Part shown: positions 30,001 to 36,000 of the stretch, one piece after another
Layout: each line of letters begins with the position of its first letter
Position numbering within the stretch: position 1 is the first letter of the stretch
Assembly (NCBI RefSeq): GCF_001677475.2
Contig: NZ_CP015229.1
Direction: 5' to 3' (one strand)
DNA length: 64,000 nucleotides
DNA from: Escherichia coli
Lineage (GTDB): Bacteria; Pseudomonadota; Gammaproteobacteria; Enterobacterales; Enterobacteriaceae
Made by a program: the position numbers

Positions 30001-33000
30001 GATGGCGTCGCCGGCGGCTATGACTGGCAACGCGTACAGCAACTTGCCGCCGACGCCCGTTGCGGTTCCGTTCGAATGGTTGGTATTCCTCTGTCAGTAC
30101 TCACCTGCCTTGCGGATATCAGTACCGCGTTGAGTCGCCTGGCAGGTAAAGAACCTATGCTGACCCGCTCGAAAATCCGTGAATTAACCCACGCCGACTG
30201 GTCGGCAAGTAATAACCGTATTTCTGAAGATATTAATTGGTTTCCCGGGATTAGCCTGGAACACGCATTACGCAACGGGCTATTTTGATTGTCTTGTTTA
30301 AAGGTGTGTTAACGTTTCTATGGTAAATCGTGAAATAGTAATGGATTACATCCTTTCCTGTTTACAGGATTTGGTCGAAAACGGTGTGGAAATTAAGCCC
30401 GACAGCGATCTCGTCAACGATCTTGGCCTGGAGTCGATCAAAGTGATGGATCTCTTAATGATGCTGGAAGACAGATTCGATATTTCCATTCCTATTAATA
30501 TTCTGCTGGATGTCAAAACCCCTGCGCAATTAATGGAAACACTACTTCCATGGCTGGAGAATAAATAATGGGGCTATACGATAAATATGCACGTCTTGCT
30601 GGCGAGCGACTGCAATTTAGTGATAACGGTTTAACACCGTTTGGTACCTGTATTGATGAAGTGTATTCCGCCACCGAAGGCCGGATCGGCAATAAAAAAG
30701 TGATTCTGGCCGGGACCAATAATTATCTCGGTTTAACCTTTAATCATGATGCCATCAGCGAAGGTCAGGCAGCGTTAGCGGCCCAAGGCACCGGCACCAC
30801 CGGTTCTCGTATGGCAAACGGCAGTTATGCGCCGCACCTGGCGTTAGAAAAAGAGATTGCCGAGTTTTTCAATCGCCCTACCGCTATCGTTTTTTCAACC
30901 GGTTATACCGCTAATTTAGGCGTCATCAGCGCACTTGCCGACCATAACGCCGTGGTGTTACTGGATGCCGACAGCCACGCCAGTATTTATGACGCCTGTT
31001 CTCTCGGTGGCGCGGAAATTATTCGTTTCCGCCATAACGATGCTAAAGATCTGGAACGGCGCATGGTTCGCCTCGGTGAACGTGCGAAAGAGGCGATTAT
31101 CATCGTTGAGGGCATCTACAGCATGCTCGGTGACGTTGCGCCGCTGGCGGAAATTGTTGATATCAAACGTCGTCTCGGTGGTTATTTGATTGTCGATGAA
31201 GCGCATTCGTTTGGCGTGTTAGGTGCAACGGGGCGTGGACTGGCTGAAGCCGTTGGCGTTGAAGATGATGTGGATATTATCGTTGGTACCTTCAGTAAAA
31301 GTCTGGCCTCGATTGGCGGTTTTGCTGTCGGTTCGGAAGCGATGGAAGTGCTGCGCTACGGCAGCCGCCCGTATATTTTTACCGCCTCTCCTTCTCCGTC
31401 CTGCATTGCGACCGTGCGCTCGTCGTTAAGAACCATTGCCTCACAACCAGAGTTGCGGCAAAAGCTGATGGATAACGCCAACCATCTGTATGACGGTCTG
31501 CAAAAACTGGGTTATGAGTTAAGTTCACATATTAGCCCGGTAGTGCCGGTAATAATCGGTTCGAAAGAGGAAGGTTTACGCATCTGGCGCGAGCTTATTT
31601 CGCTGGGCGTTTATGTGAATCTTATCCTGCCACCTGCCGCGCCTGCAGGCATTACGCTGCTGCGCTGTAGCGTAAACGCTGCCCACAGTCGTGAGCAAAT
31701 TGATGCCATCATTCAGGCATTTGCTACTCTGAAGCAGTAATGTGAGCCCGCTGTGGTGTTGCGCCACGGCGGGTTTAATGTTGTCTGTCATACCAATACA
31801 CCAGGCTCAACGCCACCAGCACAAACGCTATCGGTAAACCGAGCGCGGTAACAGGTGCGCTCAACGCAAATAACATTCCCAAATTGACCATGATTTGATA
31901 GCTGATCCAGGTGAGTAAGCCAACGATGACGCCTACAGCGAGACGGCTACCCATCCCTGGCGAGCGCGGGGCGCTAAAGGTAAACGGTACAGCCAGCAAA
32001 ATCATCGCCAAGGTCAAGATGGGTTGCCCCAGTTTTTCCCACAGTGCAAGGCGGTATTCGCTGCTGGGTTGCCCGGTTTCCTGCAAATAATGGATGTAAT
32101 GATTAAGCTGACGGACAGAAAAAGTATTCCCCGGCATCGATAACTCTTCAAGATTCATACTGGTGAAGGCCGATTGGCAGGCAAGATTATCTAATGTTTC
32201 CAGCGTTTCTTTGCCATTCAGCCATTTTTTATGATTCACACCATGCAGGATCCACGTTTTGTCGTCTTCAATGGTGGCACTGCGTGCATAAATGTAGGAT
32301 TCGAGCGAAAGATCGTCACGATAATGAAAAATCTCCACGCCCACCGGCTGGCCCTGCTCGTTCAGCGATTTCACCGTCACAAATTCATTACCACGCCTGG
32401 CCCACAGCATATTGCCGGTAATGTCATCGTCCTCCCCCAACGCAGTGGCGGTCGATTTGATTTGCAGCGCCTGTTGCTGCAATGGCGACGCCACCCACTC
32501 ATCTATTGCGCCTAACGAAACAGTCCACAATATCCCAGCAACCAGCGCCACCAGTGCAATACGGAAGATAGAAAACCCAGTGCTGCGAATGGCGGTAAGC
32601 TCACTGTTTTTCGATAACTGCCCCAGGCCGACAATCCCTCCCAATAAGGCGATAAACGGCGAAAGTTCGACCAGTGTGCGCGGTAAGGTCATCAGCACCA
32701 CCAGCACCGCCTGAGTCCAGCGATAACCGCCCGGGCTGACATCATCCAGTTCGTTAATCAGGTTGAAGGTGGTAAAAAGCGGCAGCAATAGCCCTGCGGC
32801 GGCGGCAAAACCGAGAAAGAGATGACGGATCAAATAGCGACTGAAAACATTCATCGGGAAAATTTCTGCAGCAAAGAGAAGTCGCGTGCGACCAGCATCA
32901 GCAGGCCCATTAGCATGAGTCCGGGCACTAACCACAAACCAGGAATGAGAGGAATCGCGCCGTTAGCCACCAGCGTACGGCAGACGTCGCCGCCATAAAA

Positions 33001-36000
33001 AATGGCAATAAACAGCAACGTCAGTGGCAATAACGTTGAAAATCGCCCCTGCCGCGGTTTTACCCGACTTAATGAAATGGCCAGCAGCGCCATCAACAAT
33101 GCTGTCAGGCCACGGCTTTGTCGCCATTGCAGTTCGGCATGATCGGCTGGAAAGACGGAGCGCGCCAGCTCCGTGACCGATTTTGCTTTGCGTTTGACGT
33201 TAGGGCTTTGATCCAGCGGATTCAGATGTAATTGCAGATTACGGTAGATCTGTTCGTTGTCGTCACGCCCCTGATGATCGAGAAGGTAGGCGGTCCCGTT
33301 ATGCAACATAACGGTCGGTTTCTCGGGTGATGGGTCAACCACATCAACCGAACGGGCGCGGAAAATGCGGGTTCGATTGGCAGTAGAAGTATAAATCAGC
33401 GCGTCAGTCAGGCGATTATTATCCTGATCAACCGTCTGCGAAAGGATCATTCGTCCGTTATCGTTAGTGTTAAATTTCTTTGCCCGCAACTGGCGAACAT
33501 CCAACTCCGACTGCGACTGTTGCTCCAGTTGATAAATCTGCGCATAAGCCCACGGACGACCATACATCGACAGAAGGGTGACAAAAATACTTAGCGGTAT
33601 CGCCAAATTAAGAACGGCTTTGTACAAGCGTCCCGGACTGCCCCCCGCCGCAGAGATAGCGGTAATTTCCGAGTCGGTATACATCTGCCCTAGCGTCACG
33701 CCAACTGACACATACAGTCCAACAGGTAACAACATCTCCAGTGCAATCAGCACTTTGTAGAAAACGATATCCAGCACAACATCAAGTGCTAATGTCCCAT
33801 TTGCCGCTTCGGTCAGATAACGCTGTGCGGAGTAGCTGGCGAAAATAAAGATCAGAAAACCGACGATAATCAGCACCAGACGGCGCGTACCACGCATGAT
33901 GTAGTGTTCAACCAGCTTCATCTCACTAACGCCCTCAATCCTTTGAGTTTTTTATTCATTGATCAGCTTCTGCGCCAGCGCAATGACATGATCTACCTCT
34001 TCCGGCGTCAGGCTGCCGTCCTTTGCCCACTGAATTTGCCCGGCTTTATTCAGCACCAGAATGGTTGAACTCTGCTCCGGCAAGCGCCAGGCAATGCGTC
34101 CCAGTCCATTGCCGTCAATAACGAATTGCGCCCACGGATAGCGGCGTTTATTTTTTTCGATTTTGCCAACGACAAAATAGCCGGTACCAAAAATGGCATC
34201 ATCGGTGTTCACAATGGTGGTGGGCTGAAAACGATCCTGCGGAAAGTTTGCCGCTTCAACCGCTTTAATTAACAGTGAGTTCTTTTTCTTCGCCGACTTA
34301 CGCCCAGCGATATACTGAATAATGCGAACTTTTCCCGCCAGCTGTGTGCTGTTCCACTTTTGGTAGTGAATTTCGTCGTCGCTATTCAGAAGCAGCTCGC
34401 CGCCTTCCTGGATATAAACAGGGGTAACCGTTTTGCCAGTGACGAAATTGTGTGCCTGCACACCCGGGGCTAAGAGCATGATAATCAGCGCAATAATCAA
34501 ACGAGATGACATCATTGCTCCGGTTATAGCGGAAAACGCGAAATCAGCAGCTCTAAGCGCTGGCGAATATCGCTATCCAGCGCCACCGGTGCATCATACG
34601 ACTGGCGGTTTTCCATATCATCCGCCACCATGTCGTCGTGTTTATCCCCCATCAGGCCATTAATGGCGGCGAGGAAACGGGAAATCTGTAACGCCTCTTT
34701 ATTTTCAGGATCAAGCGATCTTAGGGTGTCGTAATAAGAAACCTGCTGGCTGATGATTTTTCGCACATCATGAAATTCCCTGCCGGTTAGTCGCGGTTTG
34801 GCGATTATCTCTTTCAGGGTATGCATTTGCTTTTGCCGATAGGCAATAAAACCGCTTACGATTTCTAACTGGCTATGGCGTAATGAATAGTTCACCAACG
34901 ACCAGACCGGAGAGCTTAAATAAATTCGTAACAGGTTGCCGTAATACGACACAATATTTTTCTTACCGTTACGAAATCCGTCCTGAAAACGTCCCAGAAA
35001 AACGGTCGTTTTGCCGAATAAAAATCTGGCCTGATGCTTTTTTAAATACAGCCGTTGTGCAAAACGCAGATGCTTGTAGCGCGCTCGCATGTATTTAAAT
35101 TGTTTGCGCTCATCAGCAGTCAGCTCATCGCCTTTGGTCTGTTTGCGAATTAAACGCAGTAACTCCTGGCGATTAACGCCATTGAGCCAGAATTGCAGGC
35201 ATAACGCGTAATTATCATGGATGATTTCGGTGGTACAACTTAGTGCAATAGTCGGCGGCAAACTAACCTGTGCATCAACGACATCATCTTCTTCAATCGC
35301 AACAAATAGACGCTCGCTCGCCTCAAGCGGGAAATATTTTCTCATCATCAGGATTTCTCTCCGGCTGCGTTATAAAGCAAGGAATGGCGCTGAAAAAATG
35401 CCTTTAAGGTTGGAATTAGCGAGAGCGCTACATCCAGACATTGCCCAGCGAAGTAAGCAAATGCAGCCCCCAGCACGCCAAACAGATGACAGAACATGAA
35501 CAGCAATACGATGTAGCCGATTGAGGCGATGGTTTGCGCCACGAGAAAAGCGCGCTGTTTTCCCGCCATCAATAGCAATGACTCCTGCGGGAAGCCCAGC
35601 ATCGAAATCACAATTGCGCCCAGCATCACCTGAATCAGGTCATACGCTTCGAGATACTTAACGCCAAACACCAGCGAAATGAGCGGCTTGCCGACGATCA
35701 ACACCGCGAGCGCCACCAGAATACCGATTCCGCCCGCCAGTAAACCGGACTTCACACCTAACAACCAAGGTCTGGTGGTGCGCGGATCTAAACGCATCAC
35801 CTCTGGGTAAAAACTTTTACCCAGCAAACCCGCTGGCGTTCCGGCGGCGTCGAAGAATGTCATGGCGATTTTAAATAACCCGGCGGCAGCGGGTCCTAAC
35901 ACGATCCCCACCAACACTGTGCTGCACGAATTACGCGCCGACCAGATGGAATGGGCAATGTTGGTTGACCAGACAAAACTCCACGAGCCTTTGATGTGTC

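What the first reader, a model, noticed from the sequence alone, without database searches (positions are those of the whole stretch)
31775..33921. LptF/LptG-like permease pair with no cognate ATPase, encoded beside lipid-synthesis genes
Two adjacent, translationally coupled YjgP/YjgQ-family permeases resemble the LptF-LptG pair that extracts lipopolysaccharide from the inner membrane. No ABC ATPase with the signature motif is encoded in the locus. This suggests a dedicated envelope-transport route for the product of the neighbouring operon, possibly borrowing LptB or another ATPase.
Basis: partly seen in the sequence, partly recalled or inferred. Interest (0 to 1): 0.75.

Follow-up and report, generated by a model that had tools for sequence, protein, structure and literature searches.

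The report
Second LptFG pair for sphingolipid export
This is a second, divergent copy of the LptF/LptG membrane permease pair that sits inside the sphingolipid (ceramide) synthesis locus carried by about three quarters of E. coli genomes, and it most likely moves that lipid to the outer membrane using the cell's ordinary LptB ATPase; this was published for Caulobacter in 2026, so the finding is real but not new.

Summary
Window 31775-33921 (minus strand) encodes an LptF-like protein (356 aa) and an LptG-like protein (359 aa). They are joined by an ATGA stop/start overlap. No ABC-signature ATPase is encoded anywhere in the 64 kb window.

Both proteins pass NCBI's curated LptF and LptG cut-offs. 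Both fold as six transmembrane helices plus a periplasmic beta domain, and both keep the coupling-helix glutamate that contacts LptB. They are only 28-30% identical to E. coli's housekeeping LptF/LptG.

The "lipid-synthesis genes" beside them are the ceramide pathway: aasR, a cerR-like reductase, acpR, spt and yghO. The window is about 98% identical to E. coli chromosomes in the glcC-pitB region. K-12 has lost this locus to an IS5-associated deletion.

Linkage of the pair to spt is kept across Enterobacterales, Pseudomonas and more distant metagenomic relatives, despite gene-order changes. Both genes are under strong purifying selection (dN/dS 0.04-0.09).

Uchendu, Isom and Klein (bioRxiv, April 2026) showed exactly this for Caulobacter LptF2/LptG2, and their Figure 2B draws the E. 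coli UTI89 operon. Nothing has been tested in E. coli itself.

The parts
32851..33921 (-). lptF2: LptF-like permease, 356 aa
   Evidence: TIGR04407 316 bits against a cut-off of 230. 29.9% identical to K-12 LptF. The AF2 model (pLDDT 78.7) has three TM helices, a coupling helix, a beta domain at 150-232 and three more TM helices. Best Foldseek matches are LptF chains, TM-score 0.72-0.78. E85 aligns with LptF E84 and is invariant in 21 orthologues.
31775..32854 (-). lptG2: LptG-like permease, 359 aa (start ATG at 32854)
   Evidence: TIGR04408 304 bits against a cut-off of 240. 27.9% identical to K-12 LptG. AF2 model pLDDT 80.4. Best Foldseek matches are LptG chains, TM-score up to 0.87. E85 aligns with LptG E88 and is invariant.
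32851..32854 (-). ATGA overlap of the lptF2 stop and the lptG2 start (translational coupling)
   Evidence: Read directly in the sequence. ATGA or GTGA is present in 23 of 24 orthologous loci inspected.
31743..31777 (.). 16-bp-stem GC-rich hairpin between the convergent spt and lptG2 stop codons; probable shared terminator
   Evidence: Terminator scan: 16 pairs, 9 of them G-C. This is a consensus pattern match only.
30568..31740 (+). spt, serine palmitoyltransferase
   Evidence: RefSeq annotation of the 98%-identical E. coli locus. The E. coli BL21 orthologue ECD_02854 makes 3-oxo-sphinganine (PMC9386255).
30320..30568 (+). acpR, specialised acyl carrier protein
   Evidence: Annotation. ECD_02853 carries 4'-phosphopantetheine and serves Spt (PMC9386255).
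29374..30288 (+). NAD-epimerase/dehydratase-family protein (cerR/epi-like reductase)
   Evidence: Annotation. Listed as epi, ECD_02852, in PMC9386255.
27653..29377 (+). aasR, fatty acyl-AMP ligase / acyl-AcpR synthetase (RefSeq start; the longest ORF begins at 27626)
   Evidence: Annotation. AasREc ECD_02851 acylates AcpREc (PMC9386255).
26139..27281 (-). yghO, putative ceramide synthase (N-acyltransferase 'aca'/bCerS-like)
   Evidence: Annotation. Assigned as aca, ECD_02850, in PMC9386255. No Pfam or NCBIfam match here.
33952..34515 (-). YtfJ-family protein with an N-terminal signal-peptide-like sequence, 30 nt upstream of lptF2 in the same strand run
   Evidence: TIGR01626 213 bits. Present beside the pair in the Enterobacterales loci but not in the Pseudomonas loci. 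No solved relative.
34524..35348 (-). 274-aa protein with no family match, same strand run
   Evidence: No NCBIfam or Pfam hit. Conserved next to the YtfJ-like gene in the Enterobacterales loci.
35348..36697 (-). yghQ, MOP-flippase-superfamily membrane protein (candidate inner-membrane flippase)
   Evidence: Weak NCBIfam MOP flippase match, 34.8 bits. Overlaps the next gene by 1 nt. Truncated by IS5 in K-12.
36742..38243 (-). yghR and yghS, P-loop (weakly dTMP-kinase-like) proteins at the head of the minus-strand gene run
   Evidence: Walker A motif but no ABC signature. Weak TIGR00041 matches, well below cut-off.
38417..39109 (+). yghT, third P-loop paralogue, divergent from yghS

Best explanation
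lptF2 and lptG2 encode the two transmembrane halves of a second Lpt-type lipid extractor that belongs to the Escherichia sphingolipid locus.

**Proposed mechanism**
1. The convergent operon (aasR, cerR-like, acpR, spt) together with yghO makes a ceramide-type lipid at the inner membrane.
2. Other operon members probably modify the lipid and flip it across the inner membrane. YghQ, a MOP-family protein, is the candidate flippase.
3. [quoted passage not shown]
4. ATP hydrolysis is supplied by the housekeeping LptB dimer, which docks on the conserved coupling helices.

**Shown here**
- Family membership, fold and the coupling-helix glutamate.
- Absence of any ABC ATPase in the window, and of an LptB-like soluble ATPase next to the pair in related loci.
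- Conserved linkage to spt.
- Purifying selection on both genes.

**Shown by others**
- The E. coli Spt, AcpR and AasR proteins make 3-oxo-sphinganine.
- Caulobacter LptF2/G2 bind each other and LptB, and become essential when anionic sphingolipid is made.

**Inferred**
- That the E. coli pair does the same job with E. coli LptB.
- That the rest of the route uses LptC/A/D/E.
For: - **Family and fold.** Curated LptF and LptG models are passed. Full-length structural matches to LptF and LptG chains include the beta domain.
- **Coupling helices.** LptF E84 and LptG E88 are needed for LptB binding and function (PMC5082905). They are kept as E85 in both paralogues and are invariant in 21 orthologues. 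The LptF2 coupling helix is 9/16 identical to LptF, against 30% overall.
- **No ATPase.** No ABC signature in the 64 kb window. No soluble LptB-like ATPase beside the pair in 49 related loci.
- **Linkage.** spt lies within the held DNA in 36 of 43 LptG2-clade loci with at least four gene orders; the remaining 7 are truncated. More distant clade members sit beside Spt, YghO-like, DAGK_cat or CDP-OH_P_transf genes. A control from the housekeeping clade sits beside holC-pepA, as in K-12.
- **A paralogue, not a replacement.** The housekeeping pair is present in 5424 of 5426 E. coli genomes and this pair in 4105 of 5426.
- **Selection.** dN/dS is 0.04-0.09 within Escherichia.
- **Literature.**
Against: - No experiment exists in E. 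coli. It is not known whether wild strains make a sphingolipid from this locus under any condition, what its head group is, or where it ends up.
- I could not obtain the Caulobacter CCNA_01213/01214 sequences, so orthology to the tested proteins rests on clade and context evidence and on the preprint's own figure.
- The Enterobacterales operon differs from the Caulobacter and Pseudomonas type. It has no DAGK-type ceramide kinase and no LptC2. It has instead a YtfJ-like periplasmic protein, an orphan 274-aa protein and three P-loop proteins. The substrate and the hand-over step may therefore differ.
- Adjacent genes are lost together in single deletions, so the within-species co-occurrence counts are weak evidence on their own.
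Confidence: 0.65

Rival explanations
1. The pair is a spare or condition-specific exporter for LPS or an LPS variant. Its position beside the sphingolipid genes is incidental.
For: Both proteins pass the curated LPS-exporter LptF and LptG models, and RefSeq names them so. The fold and the coupling helices are the same as in LPS exporters.
Against: They are only 28-30% identical to the housekeeping pair, which is kept in 5424 of 5426 genomes. Linkage to spt is preserved through several rearrangements and across orders. In an unsupported NJ tree they group apart from the holC-pepA-linked housekeeping proteins. In Caulobacter the requirement for LptF2/G2 depends on sphingolipid synthesis.
Confidence: 0.08
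2. The pair exports the sphingolipid but is powered by something other than LptB. Candidates are another ABC ATPase encoded elsewhere in the genome, or the locus's own P-loop proteins YghR/S/T.
For: Three P-loop paralogues are conserved in the Enterobacterales loci, and weak relatives lie at the edge of the Pseudomonas loci. The LptG2 coupling helix is only 6/16 identical to that of LptG. LptB binding has not been tested in E. coli.
Against: YghR/S/T lack the ABC signature motif and resemble nucleotide kinases. ABC coupling helices dock in a groove specific to ABC nucleotide-binding domains (established knowledge; PMC5082905). The glutamates that matter for LptB binding are invariant. Caulobacter LptF2/G2 co-purify with LptB.
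Confidence: 0.1
3. The locus is a silent or decaying accessory island in E. coli, and the pair has no current function.
For: K-12 lost it without obvious cost, and about 24% of complete genomes lack it. The yghO-aasR intergenic region is very AT-rich, which is compatible with silencing. No native E. coli sphingolipid was found in the literature searched.
Against: dN/dS is 0.04-0.09 for both genes across Escherichia lineages. The reading frames and the ATGA coupling are intact in 23 of 24 orthologous loci from many genera. The E. coli enzymes are active when expressed.
Confidence: 0.07

Closest known systems
Caulobacter crescentus LptF2/LptG2 (CCNA_01214/CCNA_01213; CC_1156/CC_1155), the sphingolipid-locus paralogues of LptFG (Uchendu, Isom, Klein, bioRxiv 10.64898/2026.04.12.717747; first named in PMC11324152)
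   Same: Both are a second lptF-lptG pair encoded inside the sphingolipid synthesis locus, with no lptB copy in the locus. The proposed job is the same: extract sphingolipid from the inner membrane using the housekeeping LptB. The preprint's Figure 2B draws the E. coli UTI89 operon as homologous.
   Different: Experimental evidence exists only for Caulobacter. The E. coli locus has no LptC2, no DAGK-type ceramide kinase (CpgB) and no CDP-alcohol transferase. It has instead a YtfJ-like protein, an orphan 274-aa protein, the YghQ MOP-family protein and YghR/S/T. Direct sequence orthology could not be tested here.
Housekeeping LptB2FG(C) lipopolysaccharide extractor of E. coli (lptF b4261, lptG b4262; PDB 6MHU, 6MIT and others)
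   Same: Same family (PF03739; TIGR04407/TIGR04408). Same architecture of six TM helices plus a beta-jellyroll. Same coupling-helix glutamates. Same adjacent, overlapping F-then-G gene order.
   Different: Only 28-30% identity. The genomic context differs: holC-pepA for the housekeeping pair, spt for this one. The housekeeping pair is essential and universal, while this pair is accessory (76% of complete genomes). The probable substrate is a ceramide-based lipid rather than LPS.
Sphingomonas wittichii LptFG homologues beside the spt operon
   Same: An LptFG pair linked to sphingolipid genes, as described in the preprint.
   Different: In Sphingomonas it is the only LptFG pair in an organism that has no LPS. 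Here it coexists with an LPS-dedicated pair.

Membership tests
LptF/LptG permease family (Pfam PF03739; NCBIfam TIGR04407 LptF, TIGR04408 LptG) | Sequence match above the curated family cut-offs, one protein of each type | tested here: met
   LptF model 316 bits (cut-off 230) for 32851-33921. LptG model 304 bits (cut-off 240) for 31775-32854. Cross-matches are far lower, at 65 and 87 bits.
LptF/LptG permease family (Pfam PF03739; NCBIfam TIGR04407 LptF, TIGR04408 LptG) | Six transmembrane helices with a periplasmic beta-jellyroll between TM3 and TM4 | tested here: met
   AF2 models (pLDDT 78.7 and 80.4) show three helices, six strands at about 150-232, then three helices. Full-length Foldseek matches to LptF and LptG chains give TM-scores of 0.72-0.87.
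LptF/LptG permease family (Pfam PF03739; NCBIfam TIGR04407 LptF, TIGR04408 LptG) | Cytoplasmic coupling helix with the strictly conserved glutamate (LptF E84, LptG E88) that contacts LptB | tested here: met
   E85 in both paralogues aligns to E84 and E88 and is invariant in 21 orthologues each. The role of these residues is documented in PMC5082905.
LptF/LptG permease family (Pfam PF03739; NCBIfam TIGR04407 LptF, TIGR04408 LptG) | Forms a complex with an LptB dimer and transports LPS | not testable with these tools
   Requires biochemistry. The context argues for a different substrate.
Housekeeping (LPS) lptFG orthologue group | Conserved context divergent from pepA-holC, and close identity to E. 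coli LptF/LptG | tested here: not met
   The K-12 housekeeping pair lies beside holC-pepA, as does a control representative. This pair lies between spt and the ytfJ-like gene, is 28-30% identical and groups outside the K-12 LptG cluster in an NJ tree without support values.
Sphingolipid-locus LptF2/LptG2 (as defined for Caulobacter) | Encoded within or next to the spt/acpR/aasR/cerR/bCerS genes | tested here: met
   The lptG2 stop is 34 nt from the spt stop, convergent. Linkage is kept in 36 of 43 loci, with the rest truncated, and in distant clades.
Sphingolipid-locus LptF2/LptG2 (as defined for Caulobacter) | A second pair in addition to a housekeeping lptFG, with no second lptB in the locus | tested here: met
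   The housekeeping pair is in 5424 of 5426 E. coli genomes and this pair in 4105. No ABC signature in the window and no LptB-like ATPase beside the pair in related loci. The genome that the window itself comes from could not be inspected outside the window.
Sphingolipid-locus LptF2/LptG2 (as defined for Caulobacter) | Sequence orthology to CCNA_01214/CCNA_01213 | not tested
The only support is indirect: clade and context evidence and the preprint's Figure 2B legend.
Sphingolipid-locus LptF2/LptG2 (as defined for Caulobacter) | Binds LptB, and is essential only when anionic sphingolipid is made | not testable with these tools
   Shown only in Caulobacter.

The most novel reading that the evidence does not exclude
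In Escherichia and other Enterobacterales the pair may belong to a distinct, uncharacterised branch of sphingolipid biology.
- It is embedded in a conserved seven-gene run: yghS, yghR, yghQ, a 274-aa orphan gene, a ytfJ-like gene, lptF2 and lptG2.
- That run lacks the DAGK-type ceramide kinase, the CDP-alcohol transferase and the LptC2 found in Caulobacter- or Pseudomonas-type loci.
- The lipid head group could therefore be new, perhaps built by the three P-loop proteins.
- The secreted YtfJ-family protein could be a periplasmic acceptor for the lipid, giving a hand-over route that does not simply reuse LptC/LptA.
Probability: 0.2. Interest if true: 0.6.

Novelty: already known. Interest (0 to 1): 0.3.

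Why it matters
About three quarters of complete E. coli genomes, but not K-12, carry a full ceramide-synthesis locus together with its own Lpt-type extractor. If the pair really shares LptB with the LPS exporter, two things follow. Two outer-membrane lipids would compete for one ATPase. Drugs aimed at LptB2FG could also affect sphingolipid export. RefSeq currently names these genes as LPS exporters, which is probably wrong about the substrate. The concept itself is already published for Caulobacter, so the value here lies in confirmation, in a comparative map of the Enterobacterales locus, and in pointing to the untested E. coli case.

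Tried and rejected
- **Charge differences in the LPS-binding region.** E. coli LptG K34/K40/K41 align to N31/D37/D38 in LptG2. The genuine P. aeruginosa LptG also has acidic or neutral residues there in the same alignment. The difference is therefore not diagnostic, and I dropped it.
- **YghR/S/T as the ceramide kinase.** Caulobacter CpgB is an LCB5/DAGK-family enzyme with a GGDG motif (PMC10331486). YghR/S/T are P-loop proteins with weak dTMP-kinase matches, so they are not CpgB homologues.
- **YghR/S/T as the transporter's ATPase.** They have no ABC signature motif. I kept this only as a low-probability rival.
- **Family assignment of neighbours.** The 274-aa protein and YghO gave no Pfam or NCBIfam match. 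The YtfJ-like protein has no solved relative.
- **Direct comparison with Caulobacter LptF2/G2.** This was not possible. The single genome-contig scan returned Enterobacterales and Pseudomonas loci plus one unrelated Verrucomicrobia hit, and the representative library carries no names.
- **Contexts too short to judge.** P0132, P0136 and P0145 lie on contigs too short to be informative.
- **Literature on the E. coli genes.** A search for phenotypes or expression of yghQ/R/S/T found nothing relevant.
- **Promoter scan.** The number of promoter-like sites was no higher than in shuffled sequence (15 found, 15.2 expected). No promoter is claimed.

Full report
**What is there**

The stated coordinates hold two adjacent minus-strand ORFs. 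The upstream gene (32851-33921, 356 aa) matches NCBI's curated LptF model at 316 bits (cut-off 230). The downstream gene matches the LptG model at 304 bits (cut-off 240). Each scores far lower on the other model.

The mechanical ORF list starts the LptG-like gene at a GTG at 32935. The real start is the ATG at 32854, as in RefSeq and in every orthologue. This ATG overlaps the LptF-like stop codon as ATGA. The same ATGA or GTGA overlap occurs in 23 of 24 orthologous loci from Escherichia to Pseudomonas. Translational coupling is therefore a conserved feature.

**Where the window comes from**

The window is about 98% identical over its whole length to E. coli chromosomes. Its gene order is: type II secretion genes, sslE, the glc operon, then this locus, then pitB, gss and the hyb operon.

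**No ATPase**

No ORF of 100 aa or more in the 64 kb window carries an ABC signature motif. Walker A motifs occur only in GspE and in YghR, YghS and YghT.

**The proteins**

- They are 29.9% (LptF2) and 27.9% (LptG2) identical to K-12 LptF and LptG.
- AlphaFold2 models built from 21-sequence alignments have pLDDT 78.7 and 80.4. Each shows three transmembrane helices, a short cytoplasmic helix, a six-stranded beta domain at about residues 150-232, and three more helices.
- Foldseek against the PDB returns LptF chains first for LptF2 (TM-score 0.72-0.78) and LptG chains first for LptG2 (up to 0.87), over the full length.
- LptF E84 and LptG E88 are the coupling-helix glutamates needed for LptB binding and function (PMC5082905). 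They align to E85 in both paralogues and are invariant in 21 orthologues of each.
- The LptF2 coupling helix is 9/16 identical to that of LptF, close to the best-conserved 16-residue stretch of the protein (10/16). The LptG2 coupling helix is 6/16 identical.

**The neighbours**

The convergent plus-strand operon encodes a fatty acyl-AMP ligase, an NAD-epimerase-family protein, an acyl carrier protein and serine palmitoyltransferase. yghO lies beyond it. These are the five ceramide-synthesis genes described for E. coli BL21(DE3) as ECD_02850 to ECD_02854. When over-expressed, the E. coli AasR, AcpR and Spt proteins make 3-oxo-sphinganine (PMC9386255). The "lipid-synthesis genes" are thus a sphingolipid pathway.

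The pair ends a tightly packed minus-strand run: yghS, yghR, yghQ, a 274-aa orphan gene, a ytfJ-family gene, lptF2 and lptG2. Spacings between these genes range from a 4-nt overlap to a 44-nt gap. A 16-bp-stem hairpin fills the 34 nt between the convergent spt and lptG2 stop codons.

**Distribution within E. coli**

| Feature | Complete genomes holding at least 80% of it (of 5426) |
|---|---|
| lptF2-lptG2 pair | 4105 |
| aasR-spt operon | 4067 |
| Whole 12.3 kb query (26000-38300) | 4051 |
| Housekeeping lptFG | 5424 |

In K-12 an IS5 element sits between yghO and a shortened yghQ. All eight genes from aasR to the 274-aa gene, lptF2 and lptG2 included, are absent. This explains why the locus is missing from K-12-based knowledge. 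Within Escherichia both genes have dN/dS of 0.04-0.09, so they are maintained by selection.

**Distribution beyond E. coli**

A scan of one genome per species found 43 LptG2-clade loci. They come from Escherichia, Hafnia, Shimwellia, Sodalis, Serratia, Pluralibacter, Erwinia, Pantoea, Citrobacter, Klebsiella indica, Mangrovibacter, Cedecea, Rahnella, Tatumella and three Pseudomonas species.

- Spt is within the held DNA in 36 of these 43 loci. All 7 exceptions are cut short on the side where spt lies in related genomes.
- At least four different gene orders occur, yet the pair stays with the sphingolipid genes.

A profile search of 1.84 billion representative proteins, followed by a neighbour-joining tree without support values, groups these proteins with more distant relatives and places K-12 LptG outside the group. 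Where contigs were long enough, the contexts of those relatives were:

- P0122: a complete AMP-ligase, epimerase, ACP and aminotransferase cluster plus CDP-alcohol transferase, DAGK_cat and Tam41 genes.
- P0131: a 54%-identical YghO homologue plus a DAGK_cat gene.
- P0137: a 56%-identical Spt homologue.
- P0129: a DAGK_cat gene.
- P0130: no sphingolipid genes.
- P0208, a control from the K-12 LptG cluster: holC and pepA, as in K-12.

None of the 49 loci scanned has a soluble LptB-like ATPase beside the pair.

**Mechanism**

The best-supported reading is that LptF2 and LptG2 form the membrane part of a second Lpt-type extractor. This extractor is dedicated to the locus's sphingolipid and is powered by the housekeeping LptB.

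The decisive experiments exist only for Caulobacter crescentus. There, LptF2 and LptG2 from the sphingolipid locus co-purify with each other and with the only LptB. Their genes can be deleted only when spt or the ceramide kinase is absent (bioRxiv 10.64898/2026.04.12.717747). The names LptC2/F2/G2 and the transport idea were already in PMC11324152. The preprint's Figure 2B draws the E. coli UTI89 operon alongside, and its text says the pair is present in many alpha- and gammaproteobacterial sphingolipid loci.

For E. coli, every step after family membership and linkage is inference.

**Differences worth recording**

The Enterobacterales locus is not a copy of the Caulobacter one.

- It lacks LptC2, the DAGK-family ceramide kinase CpgB (PMC10331486) and a CDP-alcohol transferase.
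- It has instead a YtfJ-family protein with an N-terminal signal-peptide-like sequence, a 274-aa protein with no detectable family, a MOP-family membrane protein, and three P-loop paralogues.
- The Pseudomonas loci lack those genes within the held DNA. They carry a fused MsbA/HepA-like ABC half-transporter downstream of spt and a DAGK-like kinase after lptG2.

The flipping step and the head-group chemistry therefore probably differ between lineages.

**Rivals**

- **Spare LPS exporter.** Low identity to the housekeeping pair, the conserved spt linkage and the separate grouping all argue against it.
- **Different energy source.** This cannot be excluded without biochemistry. YghR/S/T are not ABC proteins, and the LptB-contacting glutamates are invariant.
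- **Silent relic.** Strong purifying selection and intact orthologues in many genera argue against it.

**Verdict**

The substance is already in the literature, and the genes are already annotated (as LPS exporters) in RefSeq. Novelty: already known. Interest: 0.3. That score reflects the untested E. coli case and the unusual accessory genes of the Enterobacterales operon.

Noticed in passing
L049 (K-12 MG1655, 3129043-3132408), compared with window 26139-36697: In K-12 an IS5 element (insH9) sits between yghO and a shortened yghQ (1068 nt against 1350 nt here). aasR, the epimerase-like gene, acpR, spt, lptG2, lptF2, the ytfJ-like gene and the 274-aa gene are all missing. The sphingolipid locus is therefore invisible in K-12 work.
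   Followed up: partly
L042:323-2104 (-); also L040:710-2713 and L043:327-2063: In three Pseudomonas species the spt operon is followed by a fused membrane-domain plus ATPase ABC half-transporter of about 590 aa. It is MsbA/HepA-like and below all curated cut-offs. YghQ, the YtfJ-like protein and the 274-aa protein were not found in the held DNA. It may be the flippase that replaces YghQ there.
   Followed up: partly
L042:11147-12145; L050:6220-7212; L053:7523-8527; L056:13263-14267: A DAGK_cat-type lipid kinase, the family of the Caulobacter ceramide kinase CpgB, follows lptG2 in Pseudomonas and in metagenomic relatives. It is absent from the Enterobacterales loci, which suggests a different head group in Escherichia.
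   Followed up: partly
window 34524-35348 (-): A 274-aa basic protein with no predicted membrane segment has no Pfam or NCBIfam match. It is conserved between yghQ and the ytfJ-like gene in the Enterobacterales loci. Its function is unknown.
   Followed up: partly
window 33952-34515 (-): A second YtfJ-family protein (TIGR01626, 213 bits) with an N-terminal signal-peptide-like sequence lies 30 nt upstream of lptF2. No solved structure of a relative exists. It could be a periplasmic partner of the transporter.
   Followed up: partly
window 36742-39109: Three paralogous P-loop proteins (YghR, YghS, YghT; Walker A G-x-D-G-[ST]-G-K-S) give only weak dTMP-kinase matches. They are conserved with the locus in Enterobacterales. 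They are not ABC ATPases and not CpgB-type kinases.
   Followed up: partly
window 27282-27652: The divergent intergenic region between yghO and aasR, about 370 nt, is very AT-rich with long A/T runs. It could be a silenced or regulated promoter region. No Rfam family matches it.
   Followed up: no
protein P0022: One E. coli protein cluster (456 aa) combines a GspC domain (PF11356) with the C-terminal 72% of LptG2 at 99% identity. This suggests a deletion of about 20 kb that fuses gspC to lptG2 in some strains.
   Followed up: no
One of the roughly 4100 E. coli copies of the locus is on a record typed as a plasmid rather than a chromosome.
   Followed up: no
window 18377-18598 (+), 43910-43985 (+), 60697-60760 (+): Rfam matches above gathering score: C0719 sRNA (283 bits), naRNA4/CssrE (70 bits) and ES173 sRNA (95 bits). 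They are unrelated to the finding.
   Followed up: no
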